64,000 bases of DNA from Tubulanus polymorphus (taxonomy: Eukaryota; Animalia; Nemertea), in the NCBI RefSeq assembly GCF_964204645.1, contig NC_134026.1, positions 30,972,150 through 31,036,149 of the forward strand, given 5' to 3'. Positions 6,915-62,660 of the stretch are shown piece by piece. Positions within the stretch are counted from its first letter, which is position 1. Each line of letters begins with the position of its first letter. Made by a program: the position numbers and the translations under genes. A model generated the notes under the pieces. That model did no database searches and was not told the origin of the DNA. It was given only the letters and a program-made list of their open reading frames with translations.

Positions 6915-7770
6915 TAGAGAATTATTGTTCAAGAGCTTCAATTCACTGTTCTAAGTTGTTAACTTTTTCACGAAATGTTTCAATGTTTTCTATCAGCGAT
7001 TCGAGGAATTTAACACGATTTTCTAAATCCATTAATTTCTCGCTCAGTGGTTTATTCGACGTTACAGGAGTCAAAGGCTCCTCGGTTGGTGCTGGAGTAG
7101 AGGGCTCCTCGGTTGGTGCTGGAGTAGCGGGCTCCTCGGTTGGTGCTGGAGTAGCGGGCTCCTCGGTTGGTGCTGGAGTAGCGGGGTCCTCGGTTGGTGC
7201 TGGGGTAGAGGGCTCCTCGGTTGGTGCTGGGGTAGAAGGCTCCTCGGTTGGTGCTGGAGTAGCGGGCTACTCGGTTGGTGCTGGGGCAGAGGGCTCCTCG
7301 GTTGGTGCTGGAGTAGAGGGCTCCTCGGTTGGTGCTGGAGTCGAAGGCTCCGCTGTTGGCGGTGTTCGAGTCGCATATCCTCTGATGCAAGGTTCACTAT
7401 CCCGAAAATGGCTACAGTTCATTTTTTCTGGCCATTGAAATCCGAGCGTGTCACAACCATTTCTAGCAAGTTCACAGAGTGATTTACACGGTGGTTCAGA
7501 AGAACAAGGTGGTGCGTACATAGCGCATAGAAACTCCCTTAAATTCGGACTGCATCTCACCTTAACCAACGGAAATAACTGATGTAACTCCAGACCTGCT
7601 TCTTCTTGGTTTTGATGATGAAAACTATTCGGCATTTTTGTTTTATCGTACGACAATCCTACTTTACATAGTGGTATCTGTATACGCTCACAAGTTTCAC
7701 GTCTGTTGATGTAGACACTTTCATTAACACCAAAATAAAACATTAGCATCAAAATCCAAATCAGAGACAT
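6915..7770 (-). pseudogene. Secreted Frizzled-CRD / mucin-repeat / coiled-coil paralog, truncated or pseudogenised
   Basis: Signal peptide and 10-Cys CRD closely matching 61513-62175; GAG>TAG stop at 7267 inside TEEPSTPAP repeats; a second stop (CGA>TGA, ~6943) in the coiled coil; 4-aa deletion (MNRF) in the CRD. Confidence 0.8.
7075..7360 (-). repeat. 27-bp coding minisatellite (TEEPSTPAP), about 10 copies
   Basis: GGCTCCTCGGTTGGTGCTGGAGTAGAG-type unit repeated. Confidence 0.9.
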
Positions 7771-23100: not shown

Positions 23101-24980
23101 TTACATGAACAAAATGAGAAACTTCAATTGATTCAATTCAACTTTTTAACTTCACTTCTAAAAGCATTTGATCATCATCGATATTGAAATATTGATGTAT
23201 AAAAATATTGGATTCATTGTGAATCTTTTGCAAAATAGAGATTTCAGTAACTAAGATGGAATGGTGAGTCTTCTTTAGAAGATCAAGATTTCACTATAAA
23301 TTCTCTAAGTTGATCTTAATTTACCTAACACTTACTGGGGAATCCAGAACTTTCAAACAAGTAAAACTAAATATCAACTCCACATCAAAATATGAGGCTT
23401 CATTAAAAGAGATCTCGATGATTCTTTTTTAAATTGAGATTGAGAAATCGGTAAGAAAATATTTGGAATATTGCAAATACTTAAGCGATTACGATTTCAA
23501 GTAAAAAAATACTGAACACCCCGAGATTTTACACATTTCTACAGAGACAATTAACAAATTAATTAAAAGAATTTATTATTAAGAATTTATTTCAAACTGA
23601 GGAATAGGAACTTTGACGATAAAATGATTAAAACAGAGCTCGCGGAGATGATCTTATTACATGTAATGGCACAAGACAAGCGTGCTCACCACTGAACCGA
23701 TAGAACTTAAGTCTAATTAGTCAGTGATTAAACAGCGCTTGATTTCGTTATACAAAATACTATGAGAAACTAGTAACTATTTTAAACAGTTTCTAGTTTC
23801 TATAATACACCTTTAACAGAGCTCACAGAGACAATTTGAACTTTGTTAGTAGGATTTAGGGGGGCTAGCGATCGAACTAATGGTTATACACCTTCATATA
23901 ATCTTTTCAGTCAAACAAACTGTAACAACTAATATTCTATATTATATTCTCTCCTATATTGAGTCACATTATTTCTCTATCACAGAACTTTATAAAGATG
24001 ATGTTTAATACTTTTGGGCTAGTGAGACTATGTTTAGTTAGTACATCTAGCCAAGTGAACTAGCGTCCACGCGACTAGTGACTAAACAGCTTATAAAATA
24101 CTATAACGAGACAACTTATTTTCAGACGCTGCAAGCGTGCTCAGCATTAGACCTAGAGAACAAGTCAACTAGGCTAAAATATACACCTTTTAACAGTTAC
24201 ACATTTCAGAACAGATACTGAATTCAAAACAACTTACAATGATTTAAGGCAAGCTCATTAAACCACTCAACATTTACAAGATTATTACTGATCAATAACT
24301 ATATCAAATTACTGCTTGGCAGATGTAATAAGAATTTACTAACACTTTTACAAAGCAAGTTCTTTCTATCTTAACACATGAGTAAAGCTAATATACGTTA
24401 TATTAATTCCAGCACAGAGCTAACAGAGACAAGATCTTTTTTTGAACGATTTTGTTAGCAAAATTTTGGCCCAATAGAGGTTTTGTTATGAGGCGATAAA
24501 GAGAAAAGTCGTTTTACGATCTTTTCCTTTAAGTTTTCTTATGTGAAGTAATGATTGTGAACTCGTGCGGTGCAGACACAGAACATCGTTTAACGATTTT
24601 GTGTCATTTGGATGATTTTTTTTCTTTTCACTTTCAGTTAGATATTAAGCGTTAGAAATCTAAGTTTTTTGAGAGGAGCTTTTAAAAAAGCTTTTCGACA
24701 CCTCATTCTTAGTGTATTTTTACACATTCTACTTTTGGGTTTTGTAAACCCTGTAGCGCTCCACTCTATCCTTTCTCTCCCGCAATAGAAAAATAAATCA
24801 AACTTAGCTTTTTTATATTGCGACAATCATCAGTGTGGATCAACTGCGAGGTAGTGTGGATCAACTGGTGGTTCCACGATGCATCTGTTGGATTCTTCTG
24901 GTAGTATTTATGAACATGACTGTGCTAATTCTCCGTAGAATCTTCCGTTGGTCTCGCAGCATTAGTTATCGTCTAGATTT
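20161..24980. repeat. ~4.8 kb tandem macro-repeat, unit 2
   Basis: Highly similar to units 1 and 3, with scattered substitutions and indels. Confidence 0.95.
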
Positions 24981-27900
24981 ATTTTGAAACATTCAGCTGG
25001 AAAGAAATGATATTTTTGAGGTGTACAATCCGTTCGAACATCTTATAATTTTACATGGAGAAGTTAAAATCAGTCTCTGTCATTTACAATTGCAATAATT
25101 GTATTATTTGATCAGTGATTGTCAATAAACCCCCGATTGATTAGTATTAGTAGCGTTAGTTAATCACTATTTAACACAGTGATCATTAACGTAGATTTCT
25201 CTGATACAAGATCAGTTAACGTTGATTTTATACAAAGTCCGCAGTGTCTTTAAAAAGACATTGAGATCCTACTGAACCTCATTGTCCGAGGAGTTTTGAT
25301 TTTCTTTTGACATTTTTCGGGGCTGTCTATTCTAAGACGATTTTCTTTGATTAGGCGGGAAAAGGACTAATTGGAGTTTGTTAAATTGGGAGCTAATAGA
25401 GAGACTGGTAACGCCACCTATTGCTCAGGCCTTTTAGTCTCTGCGCTCTGATAGGAATAGACAGTACTAAAAGGTGGATGTGCGAGTTCTAGGCGACTGG
25501 TAACGCCACCTATCGCTCGTCACCATCCTACCTTTAGCACTGAGAGTTGGGAGCTATAGGAAGGCTGGTAGCGCCACCTATTATTGCTCAGGCACCATAG
25601 TCTCTGCGCACTTACCTGATGCTCTGATCAAAGTTTAATGTATTTTTAGTTTTAGGGGAGTTTTTGAAATCTAAGAGCTATAGGAAGGCTGGTAGCGCCA
25701 CCTATTGCTCGGACACCATCATCTCCGCACACTTACCCAAAGCTCTGATTGTAAGGTTTCAGTGATTTTGGGAGAGTTTGAGAGGATGGTAGCACCACCT
25801 ATTGCTGAGGAATGGTCTACTCTTCGTCTCTGATAAGGCTGAATGCGTGGCTACCACAAGTGGCCAAGTGTCAAGTCAAACACAACTCATTGTGATAAGT
25901 AATTACAGTCTCATGGATGAAACCAACTTCTTATTAATGCATTTCAAGAGGCACAAAATGTGACAGAACACTTTTAAACCAGTGTGCACTAAATATCAGT
26001 AAATCATATGAAAATATCAACTTGTCATCAAAAAGTGAAGCTTTGATTGAAAGAGATCTTGAAATGACTCTTTTTGAAATTGAGATTCCACAAACAAAGA
26101 TTGAGCCTTCAGTAAGACGACATTTCAAATATCGTCAAAACTCTTGATATTGAGAATCTAGTGACAAAGATTCACTGACTGCACGTGATATATCAATATC
26201 TACTAATTGACGATATATCAAAATACTGATAGAAGTGACACAGTAATTAAACTAACATTCATAATTTCACATCAAAAGTTTCTCAAATTCTTTTTCATGG
26301 ATGATATTATCAGAGGACTGGCTCTGAAATTCTCGATATCCTACAGTGTTTTTCAGTCAAAAAGAAAAACACAAAAATTCTAATGAGTTTTTTCCGTCAA
26401 ATAGAAAAAACAGAATTGAAGTTTTTCCGTCAAAATGAAAAACTCAATGTTAAGTGATACAGTAATTTTGTATTTCAAGTTTCAGATGAAATAGCGACAA
26501 CCATCATTCATGCAGGTTTCATCTCTCAAATATTATTAGTCTGGTTTTCTGAATTCAAACTTAAGGAGTAGCGCAGGAGTAGCGCAGCAGCAGCGGCAGC
26601 AGCACCAAACAAACATAGAAATCACCAAATAATTTTGAGAAACTCTTTCACATTTTAACTGATGACATTCAGAATACAATACATGTGATTAAAACAAATA
26701 TAATGATTATGCAAATGAGATTGGAGAGAGTGCCACAAATGAATCGGGACTTTCATCTAATACGAGCACGCTGAAAACAGAAACATGTGTTAAATTGAAT
26801 GAGGCAAACCATTATGTATAAGACATGAATGAGTTCGCGGTGGTCCTTTTTGACCGGTTAAACTGACTTAACAAATAAAGAATGGTGAAATGTTGAATTG
26901 TAAATTTGTACTCGGAGAAGTCCCAAAACGACACCTCACCACTCATTTATTGTATCTCTAACCTAATGCTATTAATAGAACTGTACACAAAAAAAACATA
27001 AAACAGCCTTAAATAAATGATATTGAATATGAATTTTACCTCAAAATACCTCAAATTACTATATTTTGAAAAAGTGCCATTAAATGTTGAAGGACTTCAG
27101 TCTAATACGAGTACAAACAAATTAACGGTAAAAATATATTCAAAATTTGAATGAAGGTAAATTGATTGAAATCGAACCATTTATGCAGAGCATTACATAA
27201 AATAACTACTACATAAATAAGTTCACACTAGTGGCCTTGAATTAGACCAGATTGAAACTGATAAATCTTTAGAATTGTACTCGGACAAGTCCTGTATTTA
27301 TTTCAAAAAAGGCACTTCATTTTTTTCTAGTTCCTTATCATTCTATTGACACTGGTATCACTGATATTTATTATCAGCAAAAATATATTAAACTGAATTT
27401 GAAGTGAAGTTTCAAAGCGTCAAAGCTTTTACTCACTACACTTTATTTCAAGGGATTTCTACTTTTGATTGTTTGGTGCAAATTTAATCAATTAGAGTAT
27501 TTTAGATAACCAGACATTTTTTCATTTTGACTGAAACCTGCTCCAAGAAGGTTGCGCAGATTTGTATTAAATTGATAATAAACTGATCAAATTTCTACTT
27601 AATGTCAATAATTCTATAAGATATTCATATCTATATAAATATCAATATTCAATATCGAAATTAATTTTTTTGACTTTACTTCAAATTGAATTCATTTACG
27701 GAATTTCATTTTTCAAAACAATGAATTCGAAGGTAAGAACTTCCCTTGATTTTCTGAGAAACAATAGTTTTGTATCGAAATGATATTTCATGAACAAAGT
27801 GAGAAGGAAATTCAATCAATTCCTTTCAAAATAAAGATATAACTAACAAAGATGGAATGACGATTCTTTTACGATCAATTTTCACAAGATTCAGACGATT

Positions 27901-29661
27901 GACTAAGATTATATTTACATTCGAAATTACATGAACAAAATGAGATACTTCAATTGATTCAATTCAACTTTTTAACTTCACTTCTAAAAGCATTTGATCA
28001 TCATCGATATTGAAATATTGATGTATAAAAATATTGGATTCATTGTGAATCTTTTGCAAAATAGAGATTTCAGTAACTAAGATGGAATGGTGAGTCTTCT
28101 TTAGAAGATCAAGATTTCACTATAAATTCTCTAAGTTGATCTTAATTTACCTAACACTTACTGGGGAATCCAGAACTTTCAAACAAGTAAAACTAAATAT
28201 CAACTCCACATCAAAATATGAGGCTTCATTAAAAGAGATCTCGATGATTCTTTTTTAAATTGAGATTGAGAAATCGGTAAGAAAATATTTGGAATATTGC
28301 AAATACTTAAGCGATTACGATTTCAAGTAAAAAAATACTTAACACCCCGAGATTTTACACATTTCTACAGAGACAATTAACAAATTAATTAAAAGAATTT
28401 ATCATTAAGAATTTATTTCAAATTGAGGAATAGGAACTTTGACGATAAAATGATTAAAACAGAGCTCGCGGAGATGATCTTATTACACGTACTGGCACAA
28501 GACAAGCGTGCTCACCACTGAACCGATAGAACTTAAGTCTAATTAGTCAGTGATTAAACAGCGCTTGATTTCGTTATACAAAATACTATGAGAAACTAGT
28601 AACTATTTTAAACAGTTTCTAGTTTCTATAATACACCTTTCACAGAGCTCACAGAGACAATTTGAACTTTGTTAGTAGGATTTAGGGGGGCTAGCGATCG
28701 AACTAATGGTTATACACCTTCATATAATCTTTTCAGTCAAACAAACTGTAACAACTAATATTCTATATTATATTCTCTCCTATATTGAGTCACATTATTT
28801 CTCTATCACAGAACTTTATAAAGATAAACGTTTAATACTTTTTGGGCTAGTGAGACTATGTTTAGTTAGTACATCTAGCCAAGTGAACTAGCGTCCACGC
28901 GACTAGTGACTAAACAGCTTATAAAATACTATAACGAGACAACTTATTTTCAGACGCTGCAAGCGTGCTCAGCATTAGACCTAGAGAACAAGTCAACTAG
29001 GCTAAAATATACACCTTTTAACAGTTACACATTTCAGAACAGATACTGAATTCAAAACAACTTACAATGATTTAAGGCAAGCTCATTAAACCACTCAACA
29101 TTTACAAGAATATTACTGATCAATAACTATATTAAATTACTGCTTGGCAGATGTAATAAGAATTTACTAACACTTTTACAAAGCAAGTTCTTTCTATCTT
29201 AACACACGAATAAAGCTAATATACGTTATATTAATTCCAGCACAGAGCTAACAGAGACAAGATCTTTTTTTGAACGATTTTGTTAGCAAAATTTTGGCCC
29301 AATAGAGGTTTTGTTATGAGGCTGATAAAGAGAAAAGTCGTTTTACGATCTTTTCCTTTAAGTTTTCTTATGTGAAGTAATGATTGTGAACTCGTGCGGT
29401 GCAGACACAGAACATCGTTTAACGATTTTGTGTCATTTGGATGATTTTTTTTCTTTTCACTTTCAGTTAGATATTAAGCGTTAGAAATCTAAGTTTTTTG
29501 AGAGGAGCTTTTAAAAAAGCTTTTCGACACCTCATTCTTAGTGTATTTTTACACATTCTATTTTTGGGTTTTGTAAACCCTGTAGCGCTCCACTCTCTCC
29601 TTTCTCTCCCGCAATAGAAAAATAAATCAAACTTAGCTTTTTTATATTGCGACAATCATCA
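24981..29661. repeat. ~4.8 kb tandem macro-repeat, unit 3
   Basis: Highly similar to units 1 and 2; similarity ends at GACAATCATCA ~29661. Confidence 0.95.
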
Positions 29662-29679
29662 CTGGGAGGTAGTGCTCTC

Positions 29680-29962
29680 AGTAGTTCTAGTAGTAGTAGT
29701 TCATTTTCTAGGAGTTCATCTTTTAGTTCTAATAGTTCATTGGACCCTAGTAGTGCCGTAGTTACTAGTAGTAGTTCATTTTCTAGGAGTTCATCTTTTA
29801 GTTCTAATAGTTCATTGGACCCTAGTAGTGACGTAGTTACTAGTAGTAGTTCATCTTCTAGGAGTTCATCTTCTAGTTAGAATAGTTCATTGGACCCTAG
29901 TAGTGCTGTGGTTTCTAGTAGTAGTTCATCTTCTAGTAGTTCTAGTAATTAGTTCATCTTCT
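29680..29962. repeat. ~75-bp minisatellite built of TAG/TTC sub-repeats, about 3.5 copies
   Basis: AGTAGTTCATTTTCTAGGAGTTCATC...TTGGACCCTAGTAGTG recurs at ~75 bp spacing. Confidence 0.85.
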
Positions 29963-36518: not shown

Positions 36519-39420
36519 CTAAACAGTATCGAAGCACATGATGTCATAACTGAAGACGGTTAGAACAATGATTGACAGGTACAATCTGACAGCTGCTGCT
36601 GCTGCTGTCGATGAAGAATGGAATAACGAACTTCCTCCATTGATCTGTAAACTCAGCGTTAAATTCTGTATAACATGTCGTCCTTCTTTAACGTGAATAT
36701 TCACTTTCTCTGAGGAAAAATTGGAATTCTCTGCCTGAAAAATTAACATATGCATGTTTAATAATGAAGTGCTGAATTCGTGGCTGGTTATTTCCAAGAT
36801 GATGTTTTATTCGTGTCTAGTTATTTCCGCGATGTTTAATTTGTGGCTAGTTATTTCCAAGATGATGTTTTATTCGTGTCTAGTTATTTCCGCGATGTTT
36901 AATTTGTGGCTAGTTATCTCCACAGATGCTTTATTCATGGGTGGTTATTTCCACGATGATGTTTTATTCGTGCCTAGTTATTTCTGCTTTTACCTTGATT
37001 TGATAATTTCCCGGTATCAGAATCCTCCAATATTCTCCTTGTCGCGACGTTTTTATGAATCGATGATTTAAACCATTCACAACAATGACAGCGTTAGCGA
37101 CCGGGTTTCCATGCAAATCTTTGACGTAACCATACACACCTCAAAAATATAAATTATCAATGAGGACATGAACATGGATGCTCGGTAGATTAAAATCTGG
37201 GCTGTTGACGATTGTTAAACTGTCAGTCTAACAATCGTCCATTGTTAAACTGAGCCTGAAATTAAACATCATATCACATACCTGTATAAACTTGCTGAAG
37301 AAAATGAATCATTGATTGTTTGTTCCTGTTCCAATGATCTTCTAACTGATTGTTATTGGGATATTTACAACAGGAAATCTCGAGTGTCAGTTCTAAACAT
37401 CCGGCATGGACATAATTATAATCCTGCATGCCACCTATATGTAAAATAGTGAATTAACTTTGAGCGGTTCTAAAATAACAGATCCAGTTTCACAGTTGTG
37501 AGCTATTGAAGTTAAAATTAGTTTATTTTCAATCAAGAGGACTCAAATCTCAACTCAGCAACTGTGGAAGTATGCCCCGGTTAATCTGGATGAGCACGGA
37601 TGATGGATACATACCCGCGACAGTGTACCAGTGAGCACCGTTAGTAATACCGCCCGGGAATATCTCTCCATCGCAGCCGATTGTTGCCATCGTCGGGTGA
37701 TTCGTAGCGTAAACTGACGCGATTCGTTTGAACAATGAATCGTCGGGGGAGGCGTGATATTCAGGTTCATCGTTTACGTAGCTTCCTGAAAATAGATTTC
37801 AAATCCGACCGACTAGCGACACCTGGCGATGGATCCTTGCTTGCCGCAGTAGAGAGAGTCGTTATTACAATAACCATAGCAAATCAAAAGTTCATAAATA
37901 CCTCCTTTTATGTTATCGTACGGATAATTAGCGACTAGGATTCCTCCGTGTAGTTGCGCCGATAAAACAAACGGTATTTCTTTCAACCATTTCATCACAG
38001 CTACAGTTTCAGGTTGTATCGGAGGATGAGGCGTCGAGGATGGCTCGAAGATGTACGGAAAATTCCGGTTCAAATCCTCATTGTTTGCGTTATATCTAAA
38101 CATTGAAAATATTCATCAGAAACGTTGAATAAGAACATAGCTCAGTGCTTAGTCCTATACAGCTCAGTGCTTAAGTAAAAATTTTGCTAGGAAATTTCAG
38201 CAAAAAGTGATCATATTATTAGATAAAATGTTTAATGTAAATACCAGGATGAGGGTTTGTAGCCGCAGTCGGACTGAGATGAAAGTCAGCACTTTTTCCT
38301 GGCATAGCACTTTTTGATTTAGGATTTTGTCTATGATAATTAAGCATCAATCAGGGCCTATCCTAGTTTTTTCCAAAAGCTTTTCAGACTTTGTCCGACA
38401 GACTCATTCGAAACCCTGTTAATAAGTCAATAGGGGTTAATATAACCTGAATTACACAGAGTGTGAATTATCAAACAAATCAAATCAGGGCAACACCATT
38501 AACAACAATAGAGGCAGTTAAAACAAACTAGAACTACGTGTAATTACCTTCCGACAATGTCGTAACAATCACCTTCATGTGCAATTTCAAAACCATCAGG
38601 ATTCATACTAATTAACAAGTGAATTCGAGTTGATTGAATTAATTTCGTAATCGTGGAATTTTTGCCGTATTCACTGAGCAAATAAACAGCTAAATGTAAC
38701 AATAATTCCTTCCCGACCGGCTGAAAAAATTCAACATTTTGAGTTTAGTTTGAATCTAGAGACAAAGAAAATCTGGTTAAAATCAAACTCAAACTGACTT
38801 TGCCACAGTTGGGACAATTATCAGATTCATTACTCATAACCAAATGAAGACAAATACTTTAAATTGGAAATAAAAATTGGGAATCAAAAATAGAGATGAC
38901 TTCAGTGAGGACCTAAACTAGTTTGACTACCGGGTACTTGAATAGATTACCTCATTTCCATGGATATTTCCGACATATTTAATTTCTGGAATGAGTGCAG
39001 AGTGGACAGCAGGACGAGTACCGATAGCTAGAACCCATAATTCACGCCCTGTTCAAAAATTTAAAAACTTAAACATTTAATTATATACAATAATAAGAAC
39101 AGCGGAACTGGATCCTAAACTGTGGAACTGGATCCTGAACTGTGGTACTGGATCCTGAACTGTGGAACTGGATCCTGAACTGTGGAACTGGATCCTGAAC
39201 TGTGGAACTGGATCTTGGATAGTTTTTGATACATACCTTGGACGGATTTGCCAATGCTATAAATGTGAGTTGTATTCGGATATTGTTTGTGAATATTCTG
39301 AAGTAATTGCGACATTGATGCGTATTCATGATATCCAAAATCGACAGAGATTGAATTCACCGAAATCAACAGCAAAACTGTAACAGTATAAAACAAGCAT
39401 AGCTTTGACTGTGACATCAT
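36519..39420 (-). CDS. CPM: M14B metallocarboxypeptidase, carboxypeptidase M-like, probably GPI-anchored (about 8 coding exons)
   Basis: Signal peptide; YSIGKSVQG|RELWV; GNIHGNE zinc motif; DLNRNFP; [19 protein letters not shown]; GITNGAHWY; [14 protein letters not shown]; single domain with hydrophobic C-terminus. Confidence 0.85.
36775..36980. repeat. Intronic ~32-bp tandem repeat
   Basis: TTCGTGTCTAGTTATTTCC...GATGTTT units. Confidence 0.75.
39101..39215. repeat. 20-bp satellite in carboxypeptidase intron
   Basis: GAACTGTGGAACTGGATCCT about 6 copies. Confidence 0.9.
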
Positions 39421-43079: not shown

Positions 43080-46000
43080 TTACTGCAATAAATGACTATA
43101 TGTTCTTGGTGAATTGTTGACGTTTTTATCAGGAGGTACAACAACATCAGTAGCGGCAGCAGCAGCAGCAGCGGCAGCGGCAGTGGGACAGATTTCAACG
43201 TGTAGGTCTTTGAGATAATTGTCTACAGATTGCTGACTAGTGTTCTGAGAAACCGGACTAGCAGCACTGGTAACGGGGTCGCTAGCCCTGGCAGTTGAGG
43301 ATGCTGTTGAATTATCATTGGACACCATATAAACATGTACTAAACCGGAGTCAGAATTATCATCGGACGGTTGACGAACTGTTAGTAAAATCACCTCTCC
43401 TGGTTTTAACGAACTGACATCGACACCGGCGGGAGGTAGCGACTGGTCGGGTACCGGGGGTGGACTCATTAACACACGCGGAGGACTCATTATTCTCGGA
43501 GATTCTATATCCCCCGACGACCCGATACTCTCGGAATGTTTTCGAACTCGCGACATTATCTGTTCAACGTTCATGTATTGGACTTGTTTCGGTGTGTGAT
43601 TCTGGGCGCTCGGCGTTCCAGCCACGACAGGACGACCACACGTCGGCGTACCAGTAGCATCGGCTGACAATACAGTTGATTTCCCCTTATTGTTTGTCTC
43701 CATGGTTTTTCTAGCAAATATAAATGATGAGAATTTTTGTAGAGGAGCCAGTGTCAACTTAGAATCACATCAGTAAACATGGAAACAGGTAGTTATGCGG
43801 TGTAGCAGGTTTAACTGATATTAGAAATCACAAGTTTCGGCAACTTGTGCATAGAGTTGCTTAATCAGGTCAATGAGTTCAATCAATGGAGATTCGAAAG
43901 TATCATTCACTACTACATGAATACTGTTGTTTTACTCATTTACCTGACAAAGCTACTCTATTAGACTAGTAGCGAAAGCTCGCAATCTCAGATCAGATAA
44001 TCGCAAAGGGATCATTCATTTATTACGTACGCATAAAATTTGAATTTTTCTACCCACCCCTCCCCCTCTGTACGCAAAATCGGCCATTTTTTCATATACA
44101 TTAAGCATTACAGTACGCAATTGCACTGACCCCTCCCCCTCCCCTAATGCGTACGTAATAAATGAATGACCCTAAATCAGTTAACCTACAATTACTATCT
44201 ATTTTCACACTTATTTACCTGTTCTTTACGGAATCTGCCGATCCATCTATACTTTCTTCCATTTCTTTCAGAATATCTTCAATTTCCGATTCATTTTCAT
44301 CCGAATTCGAATCACCATCAACTATTGAGAAATAAATATATCAACGATTCACTCCTGTTAGTTTTATCATTATAATTTTGCTAATCTCTAAATCAAGCCC
44401 ACAGCCAGCCCTGTATATGAGGGAGGTTTGATTTTCACAAAAGCGGAACTTTCAGAAGGTGCCCACATGCCATATTTTCAATCGAGGTTTGATCTAAAAT
44501 AGGATGTTTTGATTCAAACAACATTTTCAAATAAACTCTGAAGATGGTTTGAAGGATTGTTTAAATTGATATTGATAGTTTCTCTCAATCATATTCTTCA
44601 AGACTGGAAATAGTCGGAACTATTTACAAACCTGTTTTTTTAATTCGTTTTTTACGCGACCGCGTAGCGACTGTTGTTCCAGTTCCGGCAGTTCCTCCTG
44701 TTCTCGTTTCTTTTTGCTGTTTGCGTTTATTTGATTTTGGTTTTGGTTCGATCTCTTCGTCGGACGACTCGTCAAATATCGATGAATCGAAATTCCGTCT
44801 CTCGGCTGGAAAAATAAAAAAACTATTTATTATCGAAATTCATAGAGTATTTGAAACAGCCACAACAGAATCACAACTATAACAAATTCATCCTTGAAAA
44901 TAATATCATTACAATACGATTGATTATCTGATGAGGCCGAAATTGATTGTGCTATCATTTTTCAAGGATAAATTTTATTTTAGTTCTGAACGTTCGACTC
45001 TCTCTCTCTACTAAAAGAAACGGCCCTTTCTTTGTTAAGTCTTCTATGCATCTTGAGGAAGGTCAAAAATTGTGTGTAAACACAAACAAATCACAAACAA
45101 TTTTTCCGAACATTCCCCCTAAACAGTAAAGTTCAGATCAGTAAAAAGTTTGCGAGTTCAAAACAAATTGAAGAGAACATTTTAAAGGGTGTAATTTCAG
45201 ACATACCTATAGCCATATCAATCAGCGATTTATTTATTCTCTCTTCACGTTTGAATTTATTCTGAATTCAAAATAAAGTAAAAAGAATGAATTCTATTTT
45301 TCGATAAAAACAGAATGAATGATACTATTGAGAGTGATCGGTATTTCTTACCTTCAGTTGAGTTCGTGTTCTCTTTGGAAACATTTTCTGAATCAGCGAG
45401 AAATCTGTACCTAACGTACTGATTGCTTTATAGAATCTTTTAGTTTCTGCAAATGAAATTCAAGAGTTTCGATAAGTAGGTAAAACATGGCAAGGTTTTG
45501 ATGCAATCAGGTTCGATTCCCGGTCGAGGGAGGTACGACCAGGTTCAAACCCCTATATCAAATATACCTCTTTCAGTCCATGTTTTTGTAGGAATATAAT
45601 TTCTGTAACTCAGCGATGTTGTAAAATAATTCTCATCTTCTTCTACGGTATTGGTTTCGTTGATCGGGGATTTAGGGCCATCATTTTCAGCCGGGACGAA
45701 CAAACTAGAAATGTACATCACATTACATCATCAGTACGCACAGGTAGGCTCACCTAGATAGGCACAGGTAGGCTTATCTAGATAGACACTGATAGGCTTA
45801 TCTATCTAGATAGGCACAGGTAGGCTTATCTAGATAGGTACAGGTAGGCTTATCTAGATAGGTACAGGTAGGCTTATCTAGATAGGCACAGGTAGGCTTA
45901 TCTAGATAGATAGGCACAGGTAGGCTTATCTAGATAGGTACAGGTAGGCTTATCTAGATAGGCACAGGTAGGCTTACCTAGATAGGCACTGATAGGCTTA

Positions 46001-49000
46001 TCTATCTAGATAGGCACAGGTAGGCTTATCTAGATAGGTACAGGTAGGCTTATCTAGATAGGCACAGGTAGGCTTACCTAGATAGGCACTGATAGGCTTA
46101 TCTATCTAGATAGGCACAGGTAGGCTTATCTAGATAGGCACAGGTAGGCTTACCTAGATAGGCACTGATAGGCTTATCTATCTAGATAGGCACAGGTAGG
46201 CTTACCTAGATAGGCACAGGTAGGTTTATCTATCTAGATAGGCACAGGTAGGTTTATCTAGATAGGCACAGGTAGGCTTATCTAGATAGACACTGATAGG
46301 CTTATCTATCTAGATAGGCACAGGTAGGCTTATCTATCTAGATAGGCACAGGTAGGCTTACCTAGATAGGCACAGGTAGGCTTATCTAGATAGACACTGA
46401 TAGGCTTATCTATCTAGATAGGCACAGGTAGGCTTATCTAGATAGGCAGAGGTAGGCTTATCTAGATAGACACTGATAGGCTTATCTATCTAGATAGGCA
46501 CAGGTAGGCTTATCTAGATAGGCACTGATAGGCTTATCTATCTAGATAGGCACAGGTAGGCTTATCTAGATAGGTACAGGTAGGCTTATCTAGATAGGCA
46601 CAGGTAGGCTTACCTAGATAGGCACTGATAGGCTTATCTATCTAGATAGGCACAGGTAGGCTTATCTAGATAGGTACAGGTAGGCTTATCTAGATAGGCA
46701 CAGGTAGGCTTACCTAGATAGGCACTGATAGGCTTATCTATCTAGATAGGCACAGGTAGGCTTATCTAGATAGGTACAGGTAGGCTTATCTAGATAGGCA
46801 CAGGTAGGCTTACCTAGATAGGCACTGATAGGCTTATCTATCTAGATAGGCACAGGTAGGCTTATCTAGATAGGTACAGGTAGGCTTATCTAGATAGGCA
46901 CAGGTAGGCTTATCTAAATAGACACTGATAGCCTTATCTATCTAGATAGGCACAGGTAGGCTTATCTAGATAGGTACAGGTAGGCTTATCTAGATAGGCA
47001 CAGGTAGGCTTACCTAAATAGACACTGATAGGCTTATCTATCTAGATAGGTACAGGTAGGCTTATCTAGATAGGCACAGGTAGGCTTATCTAGATAGACA
47101 CTGATAGGCTTATCTATCTAGATAGGCACAGGTAGGCTTATCTAGATAGGTACAGGTAGGCTTATCTAGATAGGCACAGGTAGGCTTATCTAGATAGGCA
47201 CAGGTAGGCTTATCTAGATAGGTACAGGTAGGCTTATCTAGATAGGCACAGGTAGGCTTATCTAGATAGGCACAGGTAGGCTTATCTAGATAGGTACAGG
47301 TAGGCTTATCTAGATAGGTACAGGTAGGCTTATCTAGATAGGTACAGGTAGGCTTATCTAGATAGGTACAGGTAGGCTTATCTAGATAGGCACAGGTAGG
47401 CTTATCTAGATAGATAGGCACAGGTAGGCTTATCTAGATAGGTACAGGTAGGCTTATCTAGATAGGCACAGGTAGGCTTATCTAGATAGATAGGCACAGG
47501 TAGGCTTATCTAGATAGGTACAGGTAGGCTTATCTAGATAGGCACAGGTAGGCTTATCTAGATAGGCACAGGTAGGCTTATCTAGATAGATAGGCACAGG
47601 TAGGCTTATCTAGATAGGTACAGGTAGGCTTATCTAGATAGGTACAGGTAGGCTTATCTAGATAGGCACAGGTAGGCTTATCTAGATAGGCACAGGTAGG
47701 CTTATCTAGATAGATAGGCACAGGTAGGCTTATCTAGATAGGCACAGGTAGGCTTATCTAGATAGGCACAGGTAGGTTTGGAGTGTAGGACACATACCTT
47801 GCCTCATTGAGTATGATACTACCATCAGGTCCGACCGTAAGCTGAGGAGCAGGAGCTGCAGTCTGCTCTTCCTCTTCAAGCTCCTGCTGCTCCTTGCTAT
47901 GAGTTGATTCGTCATTGCCCGCCACCGACGAGCGATCATCTTCCGTTGCCCGAGGCGATGAAGATTCTATTGTTGTATCGTCACTCTCTTTCGATGTTTT
48001 CGCTTTTTTGTTTTTTAATGTGTATCTAGTGAAAAAGACGAGGTGAGTTATAAAACCATTATAACATACAATAAATAGACAATACAGTAAACCTCGCTCA
48101 ACTCTAACTCTGACAAACAACAAAATCATTTTCTGACTTGCAAACATATTTTCCGATACTCGAACTTACGCTTGAGTTTCTGCGGCTTCAAATGTTACAA
48201 TTCATTCATTTTTCATTGAATCCCGTATTGATAAAGAGACATGAATATTGAATATCCAATTTCCCTTAGTTTTCTGATTCCCCCGAGTTTTCCCGTTTTT
48301 ACACTTCAATGATCTATGATTAAGATATCGCAACAGCATATTTTCAAGTTATCAAGACAAAACGACCACTTTCCGCCCGTTTACAAATCCCAAGAGTTTT
48401 CAATGTGATAACTGCATAGGAAATTCTCATTCGAACTAAATAAAGTAGATCAGTCCCAAATGATGTGGATTTAACCCTTCAGTGCGTCTACACCGCAGTG
48501 CGGTGTATGAATCAGTAATAAGTAATTAGTTTTTGTTTTTGTTTTTATTTTTTTAAATGGCAGCACCTGTCAAACATAGTGAAATTCTAGTAACTAACGA
48601 TACACCGCGCCGCGGTGTAGACGCACTCTAGTGGTATTCCTGTTATTCAGCACACTAGGGCGGATTTTTTCAAAATTTTCAAATTATCTCCAGCACTATA
48701 GGGTATTGATTAGTCAGCACTGAAAGGGTTAAGCAGATTTTGAAGCGATTCTTACTTCATAGGGTTTGATGATGGATTCCAGTGAATGAGATCTCTCATT
48801 GTCATTTTAGTTCGATCTGGTGGATTCTCCGGGTCAAAACTCACTTTATAACGAGGAGCACGCGATTTTTTTGGCTGGAAAACAAAAAATGCAAAATATG
48901 AAATTTTGGGAATTCTCTTTCACGCGCTTTCTTATCATAGAAACTAACTTTGTACATGTAATTTCACTAGATTTCAAAGTTTAAAGTCCACAGTCGATTC

Positions 49001-56214: not shown

Positions 56215-58868
56215 ATGACTGGAAGTATGAATGAGTTGAAATCAGACTCTGCAGCAGCTGCAGCAGATGCTGGAGACAGTTTACTATCCATGCACAATAT
56301 ACGAGTTGTATCTATAATTCTCATGTCGTTCGTATGTTTCCAATGTATCGATCAATTTCTGTACGTTGTATTCGATAAGATTCTTCCTCTGCGAATATCT
56401 GAACGAATTGTAGCCGTTAGAAGCTCGCAATGGCGATTCAACAATATATTTATTTCGTTCATACATTCCTGTTTGTCTGGAGTCGGATCGGTTTTGTGGT
56501 AAGAAAAAGAGCTTTTACTTTTTATTTACCACTTTCTTCTTAGTAGTTAGTATTAGTAATTTCTAATAATACAAAGTTTGCCTTCTTCATGGGTGTGGCC
56601 GGGGCTTGGTTAATCTATATATTAGAAGGGCTTCGTGTAATTTGCGATAAGTCATTACAATTGGTTTTAAACGATACAAATGATGAGTAAGTCTGTCTAA
56701 TTAGTAATGGGAGGGGCTAAGGGGGGCCAGGGCTGTTGAGTAGGGTGAGTGTGTCCGTAAGGGTTAGACTCTTTAACTTGTTGTTAAACATAATGTCTCA
56801 AATTGTATTGTAGTTTTTACTGGTTTCCACACATGGCTGAAAATATGTTCACATCTCACAACATTTATTCAATTTGTCTGGTGTCATTTTCTACTGGTAA
56901 GAACCACTATAGTGCTGGATTTCAGATTCACAACTGTTAAAGAAATCAACTAGATTTAATTGAAGAACTGTTGAATGGGATCTTGTTTATAAATTAGGAT
57001 CAACACTTATTACAATATTGACTTGAGCTTTAGAGTTGAATTGAACCGTGTAGGCCTATGCTGTGCATTTCATATCCTGCAATCTCATTCATTATGAAAT
57101 ATTAATCGGGCATCATGACTTCATTGGTTGATTGAATTAACCACGTTGTCCTAATTCAGGATTTTTTTTGTTGGTTTGTAATCAAGCTAATTGTTTGTCC
57201 TAATTTCAGGATATTTTCTACATGATTTTGTTCATAATACACATGGTGATAGTAAACGTAGTGCTCAAGAAATAATGGGTCATCACGTAGTTGTAAGTTT
57301 GAACCTGTTTTAAATGTGAAATAAATGAAGAACATTTTAAACTTTGAATTCATTGTTAGAATGTTCATGATAAATACAATAGGAAGATAGATTGAATAGC
57401 GAAATTAATGGGTTTATCAGATTAACCAGCTGTTGGATTAATGCCAAATATTTGTGGTTAGATTTTTACCTGTATCAATTCAAATAGTAGTCAATATACA
57501 TAGTAGACAAATCAATATTCAAGTCAAGCTTTTGATTTTGAAAATAATTTCATCCAATTTTCATGGCAGAACCGTTTCATAGAAATTGAGAAAGAAATTT
57601 AGCCTAGCAAATGAGTTCTACGGAGCTGTTCGTCGGTTCATCTCAATAGTGAAATCAATCAGCTGAGAGCCAAGAACCATGAAAAGTTTGTTATAAATTT
57701 AACTTCATGTATCAGAATGCTGTTTTAATTGTGCACTGGTTAAAACTTCATCCACTTTAATCAACTGGAGCCAATTCAACAGTTGTGAGTTGGAGTAAAC
57801 TCAGAGTTAAAAAGTTAGTTTATTTTCAATGAGCAGACTCAAATCTTAATTCACACTGTGGAACTGGGTCCTGTTGGATCCTTGTTTACCTGATCCCCTT
57901 TGCTGAAAAGTGATTAAGTGTTTTTTCTTGTGTTTTAGGTGATGGCTTGTTTTAGTTTTAGTTTATTCGCGCAGAAATACATCACATATAGTTTAGTGTC
58001 GCTATTGGTTGAAGTAAACAGTATATTCCTGCACTCACGACAACTGATGCAGATTGCTAACATTTCACGCTCATCCATGACTTATCGGTTAAACAGTTTA
58101 GTCACAGTTGGTAAGTCATTCAATTCAGTCTAGAAAATATGTGATAATCCACAAGCAGTATTGGACCTGGTGGCATGCTCCTTGCTGCACCAGCAGTATC
58201 GCACCAGGTGGGGTGCTCCATGCTGCACCATCAGTATCGCGCCAAGTGGCGTGCTCCATGCTGCACCAGCAGTATCGCACCAGGTGGGGTGCTCCATGCT
58301 GCACCAGCAGTATCGCGCCAAGTGGCGTGCTCCATGCTGCACCAGCAGTATCGCACCAGATAGCGTGCTCCTTGCTGCACCAGCAGTATCACACCAGATA
58401 GTGTGCTCCATGTTGCACCAGCAGTATCGCACCAGGTGGGGTGCTCCATGCTGCACCAGCAGTATCGCACCAGGTGGGTAGCTCCATGCTGCACCAGCAG
58501 TATCGCACCAGGTAGCTATCGTCCCACCTATTCTCAATCATTTCTTAGTTCTAACTAGCGACACCAGGTGGATACTCATTTGCCACAAGTGGAATCTTTG
58601 ATTGCCACAGTCGACTCCAAACATCAAAACAAATCCACAAATTACACGTTTATAAATGTTTTGTTTGTTTGTTTCAGGTACTTATATATTTTTCCGTATA
58701 TCGACATTGAGTTGGCTGACTCGTTGGATCATGTTGAATAAGGATAGTATACCTATCCCAGCGTTCGCCCTCGGTAGTAGCGGCCTCTTTATAATGACTG
58801 TTATCAATATAGTTCTATTTATTCGTCTATTGAAATCAGACTTTTTTCGCAAAAACAAAGAAAGTTGA
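56215..58868 (+). CDS. TLC (TRAM/LAG1/CLN8) domain membrane protein, TLCD1/2-like (exons ~56215-56498, 56813-56896, 57210-57292, 57939-58110, 58678-58868)
   Basis: WRFNNIFISFIHS; STGYFLHDF; GHH; LLVEVNSIFLHSRQL; TYIFFRI; INIVLFIRLLKSDFF. Confidence 0.88.
58165..58515. repeat. 38-bp intronic minisatellite, about 9 copies
   Basis: GCTCCATGCTGCACCAGCAGTATCGCACCAGGTGGGGT unit. Confidence 0.92.
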
Positions 58869-59249
58869 ATCATAATTTTTTTTTTAGGTTGATATTTTTT
58901 GTCAAATTGTACAGTAAACTGGTTTGCTCAATTCATTATTTAATTAATGAATAGTTTTTCTGATTGTTAAAGTATAAGACCGAGCTGCCTCAGATCTAAC
59001 TGGACCAATAAATACCCTCTCATGTACTCGGAATTCTTGGGCAGACGGAGCAAGGATGGGTCGTCATTATATGAATTTTGAGTATGAAAATTTCTTTTAA
59101 ATGTATTTACGGTCAGGGGGCAGCAAGTGATAATCTGAAGCCGTCTGCTGCGCGGTAAACGCAGTCTGAGATCGATCGACTTATGTTTACTCAATGTGTA
59201 AAACAAGATTACTGTTGTATTTGTAGAAGAGTTTGATACTGTTAAAATA

Positions 59250-59399
59250 CAGCGGAACCTCGTAACAACGAACTCAGAAACAATGATTCATCAGATATAA
59301 CAAATATAGAATTTCGTCGCACATAAGAAAATTCAATCTATCGGTTATAATGAACATATTTTCTGGTCCCGTGAAGTTTGCTGTAACGAGGTTCTACTC
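59250..59399. mobile_element. Tc1/mariner (pogo/Tigger)-like MITE
   Basis: TA-CAGCGGAACCTCGT...ACGAGGTTCTACTC-TA imperfect TIRs with TA flanks. Confidence 0.6.
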
Positions 59400-60489
59400 T
59401 ATTTACTTGTTGTGGTTCAATTATATAGTTGTAGTTCACGTATTTGTAAGATCAAAAGTATTTTTAAAAAGCCAGTTTGCACTGAAATGTTTATTATAAA
59501 GGCAGCTTTGAAGATGGATACTGATTAAATCAATACGTGGTGAACTATAGGTATCAGTATCCTTTTCAGAATGTCTCGATTGATAGAACTTCGAAGTTTT
59601 AATAATTAATTTGTCACATTTTTTATGAAGATTTATTTTCGTAGATCTACTTAGAAGAATTATACATTTTACAAATAACCCTTGATAATTATAAGCTAAT
59701 GCGTAAATGTATCCGTCAAAAAAGGCTAGATATTCTTAATATGCAATGCTCAGGTAGCCTATTATCAGGGTTAACCCGTATCAGATCGGATGGTATTTAT
59801 CAGGGAGTTTTACAAAATGTGGTCAAAACTACCATTTTTGTAAATTTGTTTTGACATAGAACGAATACATGTAAAATAGCACATCATCAATATGATGTGC
59901 TATTTTACATGTGCATACTCAGGTGTGTACATTCTGTTGTTGGTATATCGATAATATGTGTTCCGTCCGATAGGTGGCGGCCATGAAGCTTCTGGCTTGT
60001 ACATGTAGTGTCCACGATAATAAATAAACATCTCTGTGATTGTTATTACTAGTAAACATGCCATTTTTTCGTCGATTTTATTTTTCATGGATCTGAGGAA
60101 ATCAACAGTCGCCAGCCAGTTTATCATCGAGAATTATTTCCCCTGACAAGAGACATTATGATTTTTAATTGAAAATGCAATACAAACACTACAGACATAG
60201 ACATTCATCGGTACACTTTCAAAAACTGATCGTCCACACTTCACTTGGGTTCAGAACATTCGATCAGGATGAGGACTTGCTGTGGCTGATTGCACAGGGA
60301 ACGGTTGGCCCGGGTCTGAAAACTACACTGAAGTCCTCGCGACATTGTAACACGTTTAGTCAAATGAACGACCTCATTATTATTGCAAATGCAACTATCG
60401 TCATTATTGTAATTGTAAATAACTAATAGATACAGAATTCAGCGCTGCCTGTATTATATATACTGCATTGAGTGGGATAGATCAGCAAA

Positions 60490-61059
60490 ATGTCTACGAT
60501 TTGGATTTTGATGTTTATGGCGCTTCATTTTAATGTCAACGATAGTGCCTACATCAAAAGAACTGACACCTGTCAGGATATAACGATTCCGATGTGTAAA
60601 ATAGGATTGTCATACAATCAAACAAAAATGCTGAATGTCTTCAATCGGAACCAAGAAGAAGCTCTTTGGGACTTGTTTTTTTGGCCGCGGATAAATTGCA
60701 GCGATTCCCTGAATGAATTTCTATGTGCACTATACGCACCGCCGTGTTCCTCGGAACCGCCGTGTAAATCGCTATGCGAAGAAGTTACAAAAGCGTGTGA
60801 AGCTGCGATGAATAGCCTGGGATTTCTTTGGCCACACAAACTGAGGTGCGAAAATTTCAAACGGGAAACATCTTGTATCGGAGCCCGAGGTATTGAAAAA
60901 TCTCAAAATCACGGACAGCTGAGTGTGATGACATTGATGGATCTGGAAAATCGTGTTGATTTCCTCGAATCACGAATAGAAAACAGTGAAACATTTCGCG
61001 ATAAAGTAAAAAATTTAGAGCAGCGAATTGAAGCTCTTGAACGCATTTTATTGAAGTAA
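60490..61059 (+). CDS. Intronless secreted Frizzled-CRD protein with C-terminal coiled coil (divergent paralog)
   Basis: Signal peptide, 10 Cys in Fz-CRD spacing, no TM segments, heptad tail [12 protein letters not shown]...[12 protein letters not shown]. Confidence 0.88.
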   Translation: MSTIWILMFMALHFNVNDSAYIKRTDTCQDITIPMCKIGLSYNQTKMLNVFNRNQEEALWDLFFWPRINCSDSLNEFLCALYAPPCSSEPPCKSLCEEVTKACEAAMNSLGFLWPHKLRCENFKRETSCIGARGIEKSQNHGQLSVMTLMDLENRVDFLESRIENSETFRDKVKNLEQRIEALERILLK

Positions 61060-61512
61060 CTATTTTAAATAATTCTGTAAAGAAACGATCAAATTTCAAC
61101 AACAACAAAGATATAATCTCTGCGGTTAAATGATCGTTCAACTCATAAATCTTTAATTTCTCTTTTTTGAGTCATTGAATAAAAGATCTTTCTTCAAGAA
61201 CTTCCACAAAAATCTGGTGATCTAGTTTTTTTTCGATTTTTCCTTTCCAACAACTTACACGAACCGGAGTTCGGAGTGAATCTGCTGTAATTTGTGCGGA
61301 TAGGGGTGAATTCTGTTCCCACAGTGTCAACAACAGTTTCGTCATTAATGTTGTCATATTTCCAGGGTAGCGGGTGATCTAATTGCAGAATTTACTAATA
61401 TTGCCTCCTCTAATGACGTATCAAATTGTATGGGTGACCTAAACCTTTATTGGCATTTGGTTAGACTGGTTGCTGGTAGTTGAAGCTGCGCTAAACCGAA
61501 TAGATCCACAAA

Positions 61513-62175
61513 ATGTCTCCAATTTGGATTTTCACGTTTTTTATGTTTTATTTTGGCGTCGGTGAAAGTTTTTTCAGGACAAGTGAAAACTGTGAGAATA
61601 TACAGATGCCACTGTGTAAAGTAGGATTGTCGTACAATCAAACAAGAATGCCGAATATGTTTCATCATCAAAACCAAGAAGAAGCAGGTCTGGAGTTACA
61701 TCAGTTTTTTCCGTTGGTTAAGGTGAGATGCAGTCCGAATTTAAAGGAGTTTCTATGCGCTATGTACGCACCACCTTGTTCTTCTGAACCACCGTGTAAA
61801 TCACTCTGTGAACTTGCAAGAAATGGTTGTGAAACCCTCATGAACAGATTCGGATTTCAATGGCCAGAAAAAATGAACTGTAACCATTTTCGAGATAATG
61901 AACCTTGTATCAGTGGAACTGCGACTCCAGCACCGCCAACAACACAGGAGCCGTCGACTCCACCACCAACCGAGGAGCCCTCTACTCCAGCACCAACCGA
62001 GGAGCCTTTGACTCCTGTGACGTCGAATAAACCGTTGAGCGTGAAATTAATGGATTTAGAAAATCGCGTTGAATTCCTCGAATCGCTGATAGAAAACAGT
62101 GAAACATTTCGCGATAAAGTGAAAAATTTAGAACAGCGAATTGAAGCTCTTGAACGTATTTTATTGAAGAATTGA
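61513..62175 (+). CDS. Intronless secreted Frizzled-CRD protein with Pro/Thr linker and C-terminal coiled coil
   Basis: Signal peptide; [35 protein letters not shown]...[14 protein letters not shown] (Fz1/2/7-like CRD); about 3 TEEPSTPAP repeats; coiled coil; no TM or NTR domain. Confidence 0.92.
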
Positions 62176-62660
62176 TTTATAAAATTTGAATGAACAATAT
62201 GTTTATACATAATTATATATATATATACATACACCTAGTGAAAAATACACGTTTGATCCTTACTGATGTACATCATCGAGTTGGAAATTTCGGATATTCT
62301 ATAATATTCTATAATATTTCATATCCATTAATTCTTTCTTAATTATTTTACTGTTTATCCATTCAGTTTTACCGAGGAGGTTTTTCCCATCTTCCTGGTT
62401 TTACCGTGGACAGTAAGAATCCAAACGAAAGATAAGAAAGAATGTACAGCCTAACGGCCAGTATGACTCATAACGGATTTGTGTTTAATCCCTGGAGAAG
62501 CCACGTTCATTCAAACTCTTGCCCTATAGTATATATTCCTTTTTTGTGACAGAAAAATAGCCACGGACTTGAAATTCAGAATTGCTTAAAACAATTCCTG
62601 TCAATGGGCCTTATTAAGAGACTGTGCAATCAGAATGATAGCGGGGATTGTTAGTGAATA

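What the first reader, a model, noticed from the sequence alone, without database searches (positions are those of the whole stretch)
60490..62175. Lineage-specific family of secreted Frizzled-CRD proteins with trimer-type coiled coils
Seen: intronless genes encoding signal peptide + Fz1/2/7-like CRD with a shortened loop ([11 protein letters not shown]) + variable Pro/Thr linker (0, ~3 or ~10 repeats) + near-identical coiled coil carrying RV(E/D)FLE and RIEALE. Known: canonical sFRPs pair the CRD with an NTR domain and Frizzleds with seven TM helices; RhxxhE is a described trimerisation motif of short coiled coils. Inference: multivalent soluble Wnt (or other lipid-ligand or toxin) traps or carriers of an architecture I do not recognise, possibly born by retroposition of a Frizzled CRD. 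The 60490 copy has deletions in the AGLELHQF helix region, suggesting altered ligand binding.
Basis: partly seen in the sequence, partly recalled or inferred. Interest (0 to 1): 0.72.

Follow-up and report, generated by a model that had tools for sequence, protein, structure and literature searches.

The report
Secreted Frizzled domains on trimer stalks
Two neighbouring single-frame genes of an invertebrate join a Frizzled Wnt-binding domain to a strongly conserved coiled-coil tail instead of a membrane anchor, and they likely make secreted three-headed particles that would hold Wnt signals by their fatty tail.

Summary
Genes A (60490-61059) and B (61513-62175) encode a hydrophobic N-terminus, a ten-cysteine Fz1/2/7-type CRD, a Pro/Thr linker (B only) and a coil with two R-hxxhE motifs. 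The genome holds four copies. The '~10 repeat' copy C has two premature stops and loses the coil; copy D is a pseudogene. The coil is under strong purifying selection (A vs B dN/dS 0.04; 9 synonymous, 2 non-synonymous changes). A three-copy model scores 0.44 against a best control of 0.01; two and four copies were not tested. One sequencing run that looks like RNA covers both genes. B keeps 9 of 9 lipid-groove residues, but the Wnt index-finger site is remodelled in A, B and C; A also has a shortened groove helix. Retroposition is unsupported: the four Frizzled receptors of this genome are single-frame too, and B and D share upstream DNA. CRD-only secreted Frizzled relatives are published, and CRD-plus-coil proteins recur unannotated in other animals, but none examined has this tail. 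Verdict: a new variant of a known kind, most likely a trimeric, lipid-gripping Wnt carrier or sink. Ligand untested.

The parts
60490..61059 (+). Gene A, 189 aa: hydrophobic N-terminus, diverged CRD, short linker without repeats, coil
   Evidence: ORF; Pfam Fz 28-126, E 3.7e-21; a contig of run X2 covers 60539-61005
60571..60876 (+). CRD of A (Cys28-Cys129); 4 residues missing around the groove helix, Gln71 equivalent absent, Tyr125 equivalent is Leu
60931..61056 (+). Coil of A (residues 148-189) with R-hxxhE at 155-160 and 179-184
61513..62175 (+). Gene B, 220 aa (P0001): hydrophobic N-terminus, CRD, Pro/Thr linker, coil
   Evidence: ORF; Pfam Fz 27-129, E 5.5e-30; contigs of run X2 cover 61396-61642 and 61614-62053
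61591..61908 (+). CRD of B (Cys27-Cys132); lipid groove identical to the genome's Fz1/2/7 at 9 of 9 positions; index-finger site changed (Ile95 to Pro88, Leu147 to Pro131, loop 4 residues)
61909..62040 (+). Pro/Thr/Glu linker of B, 27-nt unit x 2.6 (61946-62015); likely flexible and O-glycosylated (inference)
   Evidence: pLDDT under 50 over most of 138-175
62041..62172 (+). Coil of B (residues 177-220) with R-hxxhE at 185-190 and 209-214; predicted parallel in-register trimer
6922..7770 (-). Copy C: same layout with 10.5 linker units, 4-residue deletion in the groove, TAG at 7269-7267 and TGA at 6945-6943; gives at most a 167-aa protein without coil. Copy D (pseudogene) lies outside the window at G000:C2:20294328-20295010 (L003)

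Best explanation
Genes A and B encode a Fz1/2/7-type cysteine-rich domain tethered to a conserved coiled coil, and the proteins are likely secreted as parallel trimers that would bind palmitoleated Wnt mainly through the lipid groove, acting as multivalent Wnt carriers or sinks. Shown: domain order, no membrane or NTR domain, selection on the coil, intact groove residues and a changed index-finger site in B. Predicted: self-association of the coil as three parallel chains. Inferred: secretion; that a weakened protein-protein site lowers one-to-one affinity and Wnt selectivity while three heads restore avidity; that A, whose coil is 95% identical and whose groove helix is shortened, co-assembles with B and changes the number or kind of active heads. 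The family arose by duplication of the 5' part of a Fz1/2/7-type gene, gained a tail of unknown origin and spread by DNA-level duplication; two of four copies have since decayed.
For: Architecture. Selection, A vs B: coil 9 synonymous and 2 non-synonymous changes in 41 codons, dN/dS 0.04, Fisher p 6.5e-6; CRD dN/dS 0.34, p 2.8e-5. Two R-hxxhE motifs that fit the published definition (PMC3653964, passages), shuffle p about 0.0016. Three-copy model: score 0.44, best of 3 controls 0.01, runs agree in 100% of contacts, pLDDT at least 80, with R185-E190' and R209-E214' among the best contacts; the mark was reached by 21 of 30 solved pairs and 0 of 23 single chains in microbes, 17 of 29 (animals 7 of 16) and 0 of 30 in eukaryotes. 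Groove residues of Fz8 (PMC6873803, passage) map to Q64, F65, P67, V71, M110, F113, F115, W117, P118 in B, the same as in the genome's Fz1/2/7. sFRPs act as lipid-shielding Wnt carriers (PMC13434646, passages); soluble CRD changes Wnt activity in a dose-dependent, biphasic way (PMC4068752, passages). Run X2, which looks spliced, covers both genes from CRD into the coil.
Against: No binding was tested. Wnt3a W333A (site 2) nearly abolished binding to Fz8-CRD (PMC4068752), so a changed site 2 may abolish Wnt binding rather than weaken it. R-hxxhE also occurs in dimers and antiparallel trimers (PMC3653964). Only the three-copy state was modelled, the calibration used two copies, and many such coils are solved, so the pass may be from memory. 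Run X2 is not on record as RNA; its status rests on one splice junction, with no tissue or stage. The tree does not resolve the source CRD. Half of the copies are broken, which suits a dispensable, fast-turnover family more than a core patterning gene.
Confidence: 0.45

Rival explanations
1. The trimer binds free fatty acids or another acylated or hydrophobic ligand and has left the Wnt pathway, for example as a lipid carrier in mucus, gland or body fluid.
For: Groove intact while the Wnt-specific protein site is changed. Fz5 and Fz7 CRDs are solved with free fatty acids (5urv, 5ury). Of 10 non-receptor Fz1/2/7-type proteins picked by hand, 9 have also lost the hydrophobic residues at Fz8 positions 86 and 95, which 13 of 14 and 14 of 14 receptors keep. 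Proteins with up to 13 such CRDs occur in shrimp, and multi-CRD ones in coral and pearl oyster.
Against: No alternative ligand is known. B stays close to the receptor CRD (short end branch). Site-2 residues vary among true receptors too (PMC4683279).
Confidence: 0.25
2. The trimer acts on Frizzled receptors rather than on Wnt: its CRDs pair with receptor CRDs across a shared acyl chain and cluster or block Fz1/2/7.
For: Groove surface identical to the genome's Fz1/2/7. The collagen XVIII CRD is reported to interact with Frizzled 1 and 8 (PMC3267734, title in search listing only). Lipid-bridged CRD dimers are recalled from the Fz5/Fz7 structures, not read here.
Against: No complex of B with a receptor CRD was modelled or tested.
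Confidence: 0.13
3. The trimer is a soluble decoy for a microbial toxin or pathogen protein that uses Fz1/2/7 as receptor.
For: Fz2 and Fz7 CRDs are solved with a bacterial toxin (entries 6c0b, 8qeo in the hit list). Gene birth and death and the diverged A copy fit a defence family.
Against: No sign of positive selection: CRD dN/dS 0.32-0.66 in all three pairs. No such toxin is known for this host. The family is small.
Confidence: 0.07
4. These are decaying duplicates without a selected function; the coil is alike only through recent copying or gene conversion.
For: 2 of 4 copies are broken. dS is lower in the coil (0.48) than in the CRD (1.0), which an old conversion could cause.
Against: Conversion would copy synonymous sites too, yet 9 synonymous against 2 non-synonymous differences remain. 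All 10 Cys are kept in A at 57% CRD identity. Among the 40 letter changes shown and the one gap row (outside the genes), an independent DNA sample showed no frameshift in A or B; 48 further rows were not shown.
Confidence: 0.05

Closest known systems
CRD-only frizzled-related genes fzCRD-1, -2, -3 of Platynereis dumerilii and one of Aplysia (PMC4669655; passages and first part of the Discussion read)
   Same: Signal peptide + Frizzled CRD, no NTR, no membrane domain; lineage-specific duplicates; proposed Wnt modulators.
   Different: fzCRD-1 groups with sFRP3/4 and ends in a possible NTR remnant; the word 'coiled' does not occur in the paper's main text. Here the CRD is Fz1/2/7-type and carries a selected R-hxxhE coil.
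Secreted frizzled-related proteins (sFRP1/2/5, sFRP3/4)
   Same: Soluble ten-Cys CRD; Wnt carrier or antagonist role is the working model.
   Different: No NTR domain; the CRD groups with Fz1/2/7, not with the genome's sFRP-like CRDs; predicted trimer.
Collagen XVIII variant 3 / FZC18 (PMC2270346, passages)
   Same: Secreted Frizzled CRD in a protein described as a likely homotrimer, next to a coiled-coil motif (DUF959); the released CRD binds Wnt3a and inhibits signalling.
   Different: There the coil is N-terminal, the protein is a large collagen and the CRD is cryptic until cleaved. Here a 190-220 aa protein has only CRD, linker and a C-terminal coil.
Unannotated CRD + linker + coil proteins P0005 and P0113 (unnamed ENA contigs) and L012 (this genome)
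   Same: Same domain order; P0005 and P0113 also keep the groove and have polar residues at Fz8 position 95.
   Different: Different tail sequences without R-hxxhE; P0005 + P0113 form their own clade and are not sister to A/B/C: probably independent fusions.
Short trimeric coiled coils with R-hxxhE (coronin 1, engineered cortexillin, L1 ORF1p; PMC3653964 passages, PMC5940361 search listing)
   Same: Two motifs that match the definition, with the expected Arg-Glu' contacts in the model.
   Different: No sequence homologue found, so no donor can be named.

Membership tests
Frizzled receptor | Ten-cysteine Fz CRD | tested here: met
   Pfam Fz over cut-off; 10 Cys in A, B, C; best solved relatives Fz2 and Fz7
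Frizzled receptor | Seven-pass membrane domain in the same product | tested here: not met
   Frames end at a stop after the coil; no membrane family; X2 contigs run from CRD into coil without a skip. An alternative splice form was not excluded.
sFRP | C-terminal NTR domain | tested here: not met
   No NTR match at E 0.1
sFRP | Binds and modulates Wnt | not testable with these tools
   Only residue mapping
CRD-only frizzled-related (fzCRD-type) proteins | Signal peptide + single CRD, no NTR or membrane domain | tested here: met
   the signal peptide is judged by hydrophobicity only (for B and C; by eye for A)
CRD-only frizzled-related (fzCRD-type) proteins | Lineage-specific duplicate of one ancestral frizzled gene | tested here: inconclusive
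   A/B/C are one clade (98/87) inside the Fz1/2/7-type group (96/90), unresolved against the genome's own Fz1/2/7; that gene is the only non-family DNA hit, 68%, E 4.9e-16
R-hxxhE trimeric coiled coil | Arg(g)-h(a)-x-x-h(d)-Glu(e) motif in a heptad helix | tested here: met
   Two motifs in A and B; helix with high pLDDT at 201-220; Arg-Glu' contacts in the model
R-hxxhE trimeric coiled coil | Three parallel chains in solution | tested here: inconclusive
   Three-copy model passes (0.44 vs control 0.01); two and four copies not modelled
Retrogene | Loss of introns present in the parent | tested here: inconclusive
   The candidate parent and the three other receptors have single open frames, so there is no coding intron to lose
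Retrogene | Poly(A) remnant and homology limited to the transcript | tested here: not met
   No A-tract in the 200 nt printed after the stops of A and B; B and D share 235 nt upstream, score 92 against a best shuffle of 40. Target-site duplications were not searched. The first origin is too old to exclude an RNA step.
Collagen XVIII | Gly-X-Y collagen segments and endostatin domain | tested here: not met
   Absent from the sequences

The most novel reading that the evidence does not exclude
These genes are one case of an undescribed, recurring design: Fz1/2/7-derived CRDs that keep the acyl groove, drop the Wnt index-finger site and are made multivalent. Here a captured R-hxxhE coil would let A and B form mixed trimers of tunable valency that carry or buffer any lipidated Wnt regardless of subtype, or serve a non-Wnt lipid ligand.
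Probability: 0.2. Interest if true: 0.7.

Novelty: new variant of a known kind. Interest (0 to 1): 0.45.

Why it matters
Lipidated Wnts need soluble carriers, and the known ones (sFRP, WIF1, afamin, glypicans) come mostly from vertebrates and flies. A natural 220-residue trimer with an intact groove and a changed protein site would test directly whether lipid contact plus avidity is enough to carry or block Wnt. It also points to many unannotated non-receptor Fz1/2/7-type CRD proteins in invertebrates and fish that databases label merely 'frizzled-like'.

Tried and rejected
Origin of the tail: genome search found only the 4 family loci (5 matches of 6 candidates); protein search of residues 165-220 found only B itself among 6 candidates of similar length and none of 29 longer candidates; Atlas search by features gave no usable hit and by structure only generic helices under its naming bar. 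A LINE ORF1 or C1q-type donor is therefore unsupported, not excluded. Metagenome scan: 3 loci of 202 pattern matches, none with the tail in the frames printed; one is a Fz5/8-like receptor. No RNA holder was listed for the stretch; this is no evidence either way. A control of run X2 on multi-exon neighbours was not obtained. An ancient clade of non-receptor CRDs appeared in the quick tree (25 of 78 rows, SH-aLRT 93) but not in the careful tree (40 of the 78 rows, 38 dropped as long or redundant); rejected as unproven, and no AU test was run. Coil calls for the oyster, two Elysia and Clavelina proteins were dropped: 52, 45, 30 and 34 of 200 shuffles reached their score; the lumpfish tail (1 of 200) is a Met/Lys run. 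The heptad score is home-made. Literature: searches listed no paper describing a CRD + C-terminal coil protein; only listings were seen for most, and subscription journals are missing. No supplements were read; those of PMC4669655 hold the fzCRD-2 and -3 sequences, which may carry such tails. PMC11414264 (passages) added nothing. Earlier findings of this scan: none.

Full report
The sequence. The window lies at G000:C2:30972150-31036149 of a 268-Mb animal genome; the taxon was not determined. Two ORFs lie head to tail on the plus strand: A, 60490-61059, 189 aa, and B, 61513-62175, 220 aa. Each begins with a hydrophobic stretch, has a Pfam Fz domain over the curated cut-off, and shows no NTR or membrane family. 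Both keep ten cysteines and the Asn-Gln-Thr sequon. B has a Pro/Thr/Glu linker with 2.6 copies of a 27-nt unit; A has none. Both end in a helical tail of about 44 residues.

The family. Searches of the genome with B, its tail, its DNA and Pfam Fz gave four loci (counts are lower bounds). It has TAG at codon 168 and TGA at codon 276 and lacks four groove residues, so it can make only a CRD with part of the linker. Copy D (L003) has ATA for the start, three frameshifts and stops. Two of four copies are intact.

The coil is under selection. Between A and B the tail has 9 synonymous and 2 non-synonymous differences in 41 codons (dN/dS 0.04, Fisher p 6.5e-6); the CRD gives 0.34 (p 2.8e-5) and the signal region 0.92 (Nei-Gojobori). 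B against C gives 0.66 in the CRD and 0.31 in the coil, neither significant. Each intact tail has two motifs that fit Arg-h-x-x-h-Glu as defined in PMC3653964 (passages); two motifs arose in 0.16% of 100,000 shuffles. [quoted passage not shown] Three copies of B 172-220 folded as an in-register bundle with score 0.44 against a best control of 0.01; runs agreed in 100% of contacts, pLDDT was at least 80, and R185-E190' and R209-E214' were among the best contacts. The mark was reached by 21 of 30 solved pairs and 0 of 23 single chains in microbes, and by 17 of 29 (animals 7 of 16) and 0 of 30 in eukaryotes. The calibration used two copies, such coils are widely solved so the pass may be from memory, and no other copy number was tried. 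Self-association is supported; 'trimer' rests on motif plus model.

Expression. No run was on record as RNA. In the one lay obtained (58560-62640), a contig of run X2 starts at 58677, on the AG of a splice acceptor, with 199 letters that fit nothing in the stretch, while contigs of X3 and X4 from the same sample read across that boundary. X2 therefore looks like spliced RNA. It covers A at 60539-61005 and B at 61396-61642 and 61614-62053, and has no depth at 60341-60477, 61026-61299 or after 62122. This rests on one junction; 778 pieces and 73 joints were not shown. An independent DNA sample (X5) covers all 30 bins.

The binding surfaces. I numbered the genome's Fz5/8 CRD on mouse Fz8 using residues named in two papers; all anchors fit without gaps. 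The acyl channel (Gln71, Phe72, Pro74, Ile78, Met122, Tyr125, Phe127, Trp129, Pro130; PMC6873803, passage) is identical between B and the genome's Fz1/2/7 at 9 of 9 positions. The index-finger cavity has Tyr48, Ile95, Leu97, Leu147 and Met149 as its hydrophobic core (PMC4683279, passages). B has Tyr, Pro, Ser, Pro, Ile where Fz1/2/7 has Tyr, Val, Thr, Leu, Val, and the loop after Ile95 is cut from 8 to 4 residues. Of 14 membrane-bearing Frizzleds checked, 14 have Val, Ile or Met at 95 and 13 have Phe at 86; A, B and C have Pro and Glu (the role of Phe86 at this site is recalled).

Origin. The careful tree (40 rows, 115 columns) gives A/B/C as a clade (98/87) inside the Fz1/2/7-type group (96/90) without resolving their sister. 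The genome's Fz1/2/7 is the only non-family DNA match. Retroposition is not indicated: all four receptors (subfamily labels are mine, from motifs and the tree) are single frames of 571-674 codons, B and D share 235 nt upstream, and no A-tract follows A or B. Of the other 11 flank comparisons, two passed the best shuffle only narrowly and nine did not. No donor of the tail was found.

How widespread. The search of 1.84 billion representatives listed 150 of 2691 hits. Among 159 stored proteins, four had a tail score of 0.5 or more on a home-made heptad scale: B, P0005, P0113 and a Clavelina protein. Of 13 tails tested by shuffling, B (1 of 200), L012 (1), P0113 (3) and a low-complexity fish tail (1) stood out, P0005 was marginal (12), and only B had R-hxxhE. 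P0005 and P0113 come from unnamed contigs. So CRD + linker + coil recurs, rarely and unannotated, probably by separate fusions. Non-receptor Fz1/2/7-type CRDs, single or in arrays, are common in shrimp, coral, molluscs, an annelid, hemichordates, a tunicate and fish.

Mechanism. The best reading is a secreted trimer whose heads grip the palmitoleate of Wnt. sFRPs shield this lipid and carry Wnt from Wntless (PMC13434646, passages), and soluble Fz8-CRD promotes or traps Wnt3a by dose (PMC4068752, passages). A weakened index-finger site would lower one-to-one affinity and selectivity, and three heads would restore avidity. The near-identical coil would let A and B mix. Against this, a site-2 mutation in Wnt3a nearly abolished CRD binding in the same paper, so these CRDs may not bind Wnt at all; the non-Wnt lipid rival stands at 0.25, receptor binding at 0.13, toxin decoy at 0.07 and decay at 0.05.

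Known and new. CRD-only secreted Frizzled relatives are described in Platynereis and Aplysia as a frequently used toolbox (PMC4669655), and collagen XVIII carries a Wnt-binding CRD beside a coiled-coil motif (PMC2270346, passages). These genes are neither sFRPs (no NTR) nor receptors (no membrane domain). Five searches listed no description of a CRD with a C-terminal R-hxxhE coil. Verdict: real, functional by selection, a new variant of a known kind; interest 0.45.

Noticed in passing
L012:1375-2100 (G000:C11:1323319-1323846 region): A second single-frame gene with signal-like N-terminus, diverged CRD, Pro/Thr linker and a short basic C-terminal coil (1 of 200 shuffles); unrelated tail, no R-hxxhE.
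   Followed up: partly
L013 (G000:C3:3845420-3845779): Another diverged CRD with a hydrophobic N-terminus, long branch in the tree; the rest of the gene was not traced.
   Followed up: no
window 15300-29900: Three tandem copies of a 4.8-kb unit, mostly 96-100% identical; no stop-to-stop frame over 82 codons in the first unit. Content unidentified; could be a recent triplication or an assembly effect.
   Followed up: partly
window 6922-7770 and 60490-62175: Copy C and the A/B pair lie in opposite orientation 54 kb apart, with unrelated genes between: a single-frame GPCR (8786-9811), a carboxypeptidase M14 exon (39115-39420), and exons that resemble BDP1, TMEM17, INO80B and a TLC-domain gene (names recalled, not tested).
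   Followed up: no
window 58560-58600, 59245-59400, 60160-60340: High-copy interspersed repeats: read depth in the hundreds to over a thousand against about 5-15 elsewhere; one lies about 150 nt upstream of gene A.
   Followed up: no
window 45738-47776: 2-kb array of a 24-nt unit, 81.5 copies, with inverted similarity inside the array.
   Followed up: no
P0014, P0015, P0017 and other hits: Uncharacterised proteins made of up to 13 tandem Fz1/2/7-type CRDs (Penaeus 13, Montipora 9, Pinctada 9): multivalency by tandem repeat instead of by coil.
   Followed up: partly
P0005, P0113, P0136, P0155: These CRD proteins share a C-terminal helix pattern (Lys-Leu-x-Leu-Glu-Ile) across unnamed contigs and Elysia, hinting at a second, wider CRD-plus-helix family.
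   Followed up: partly
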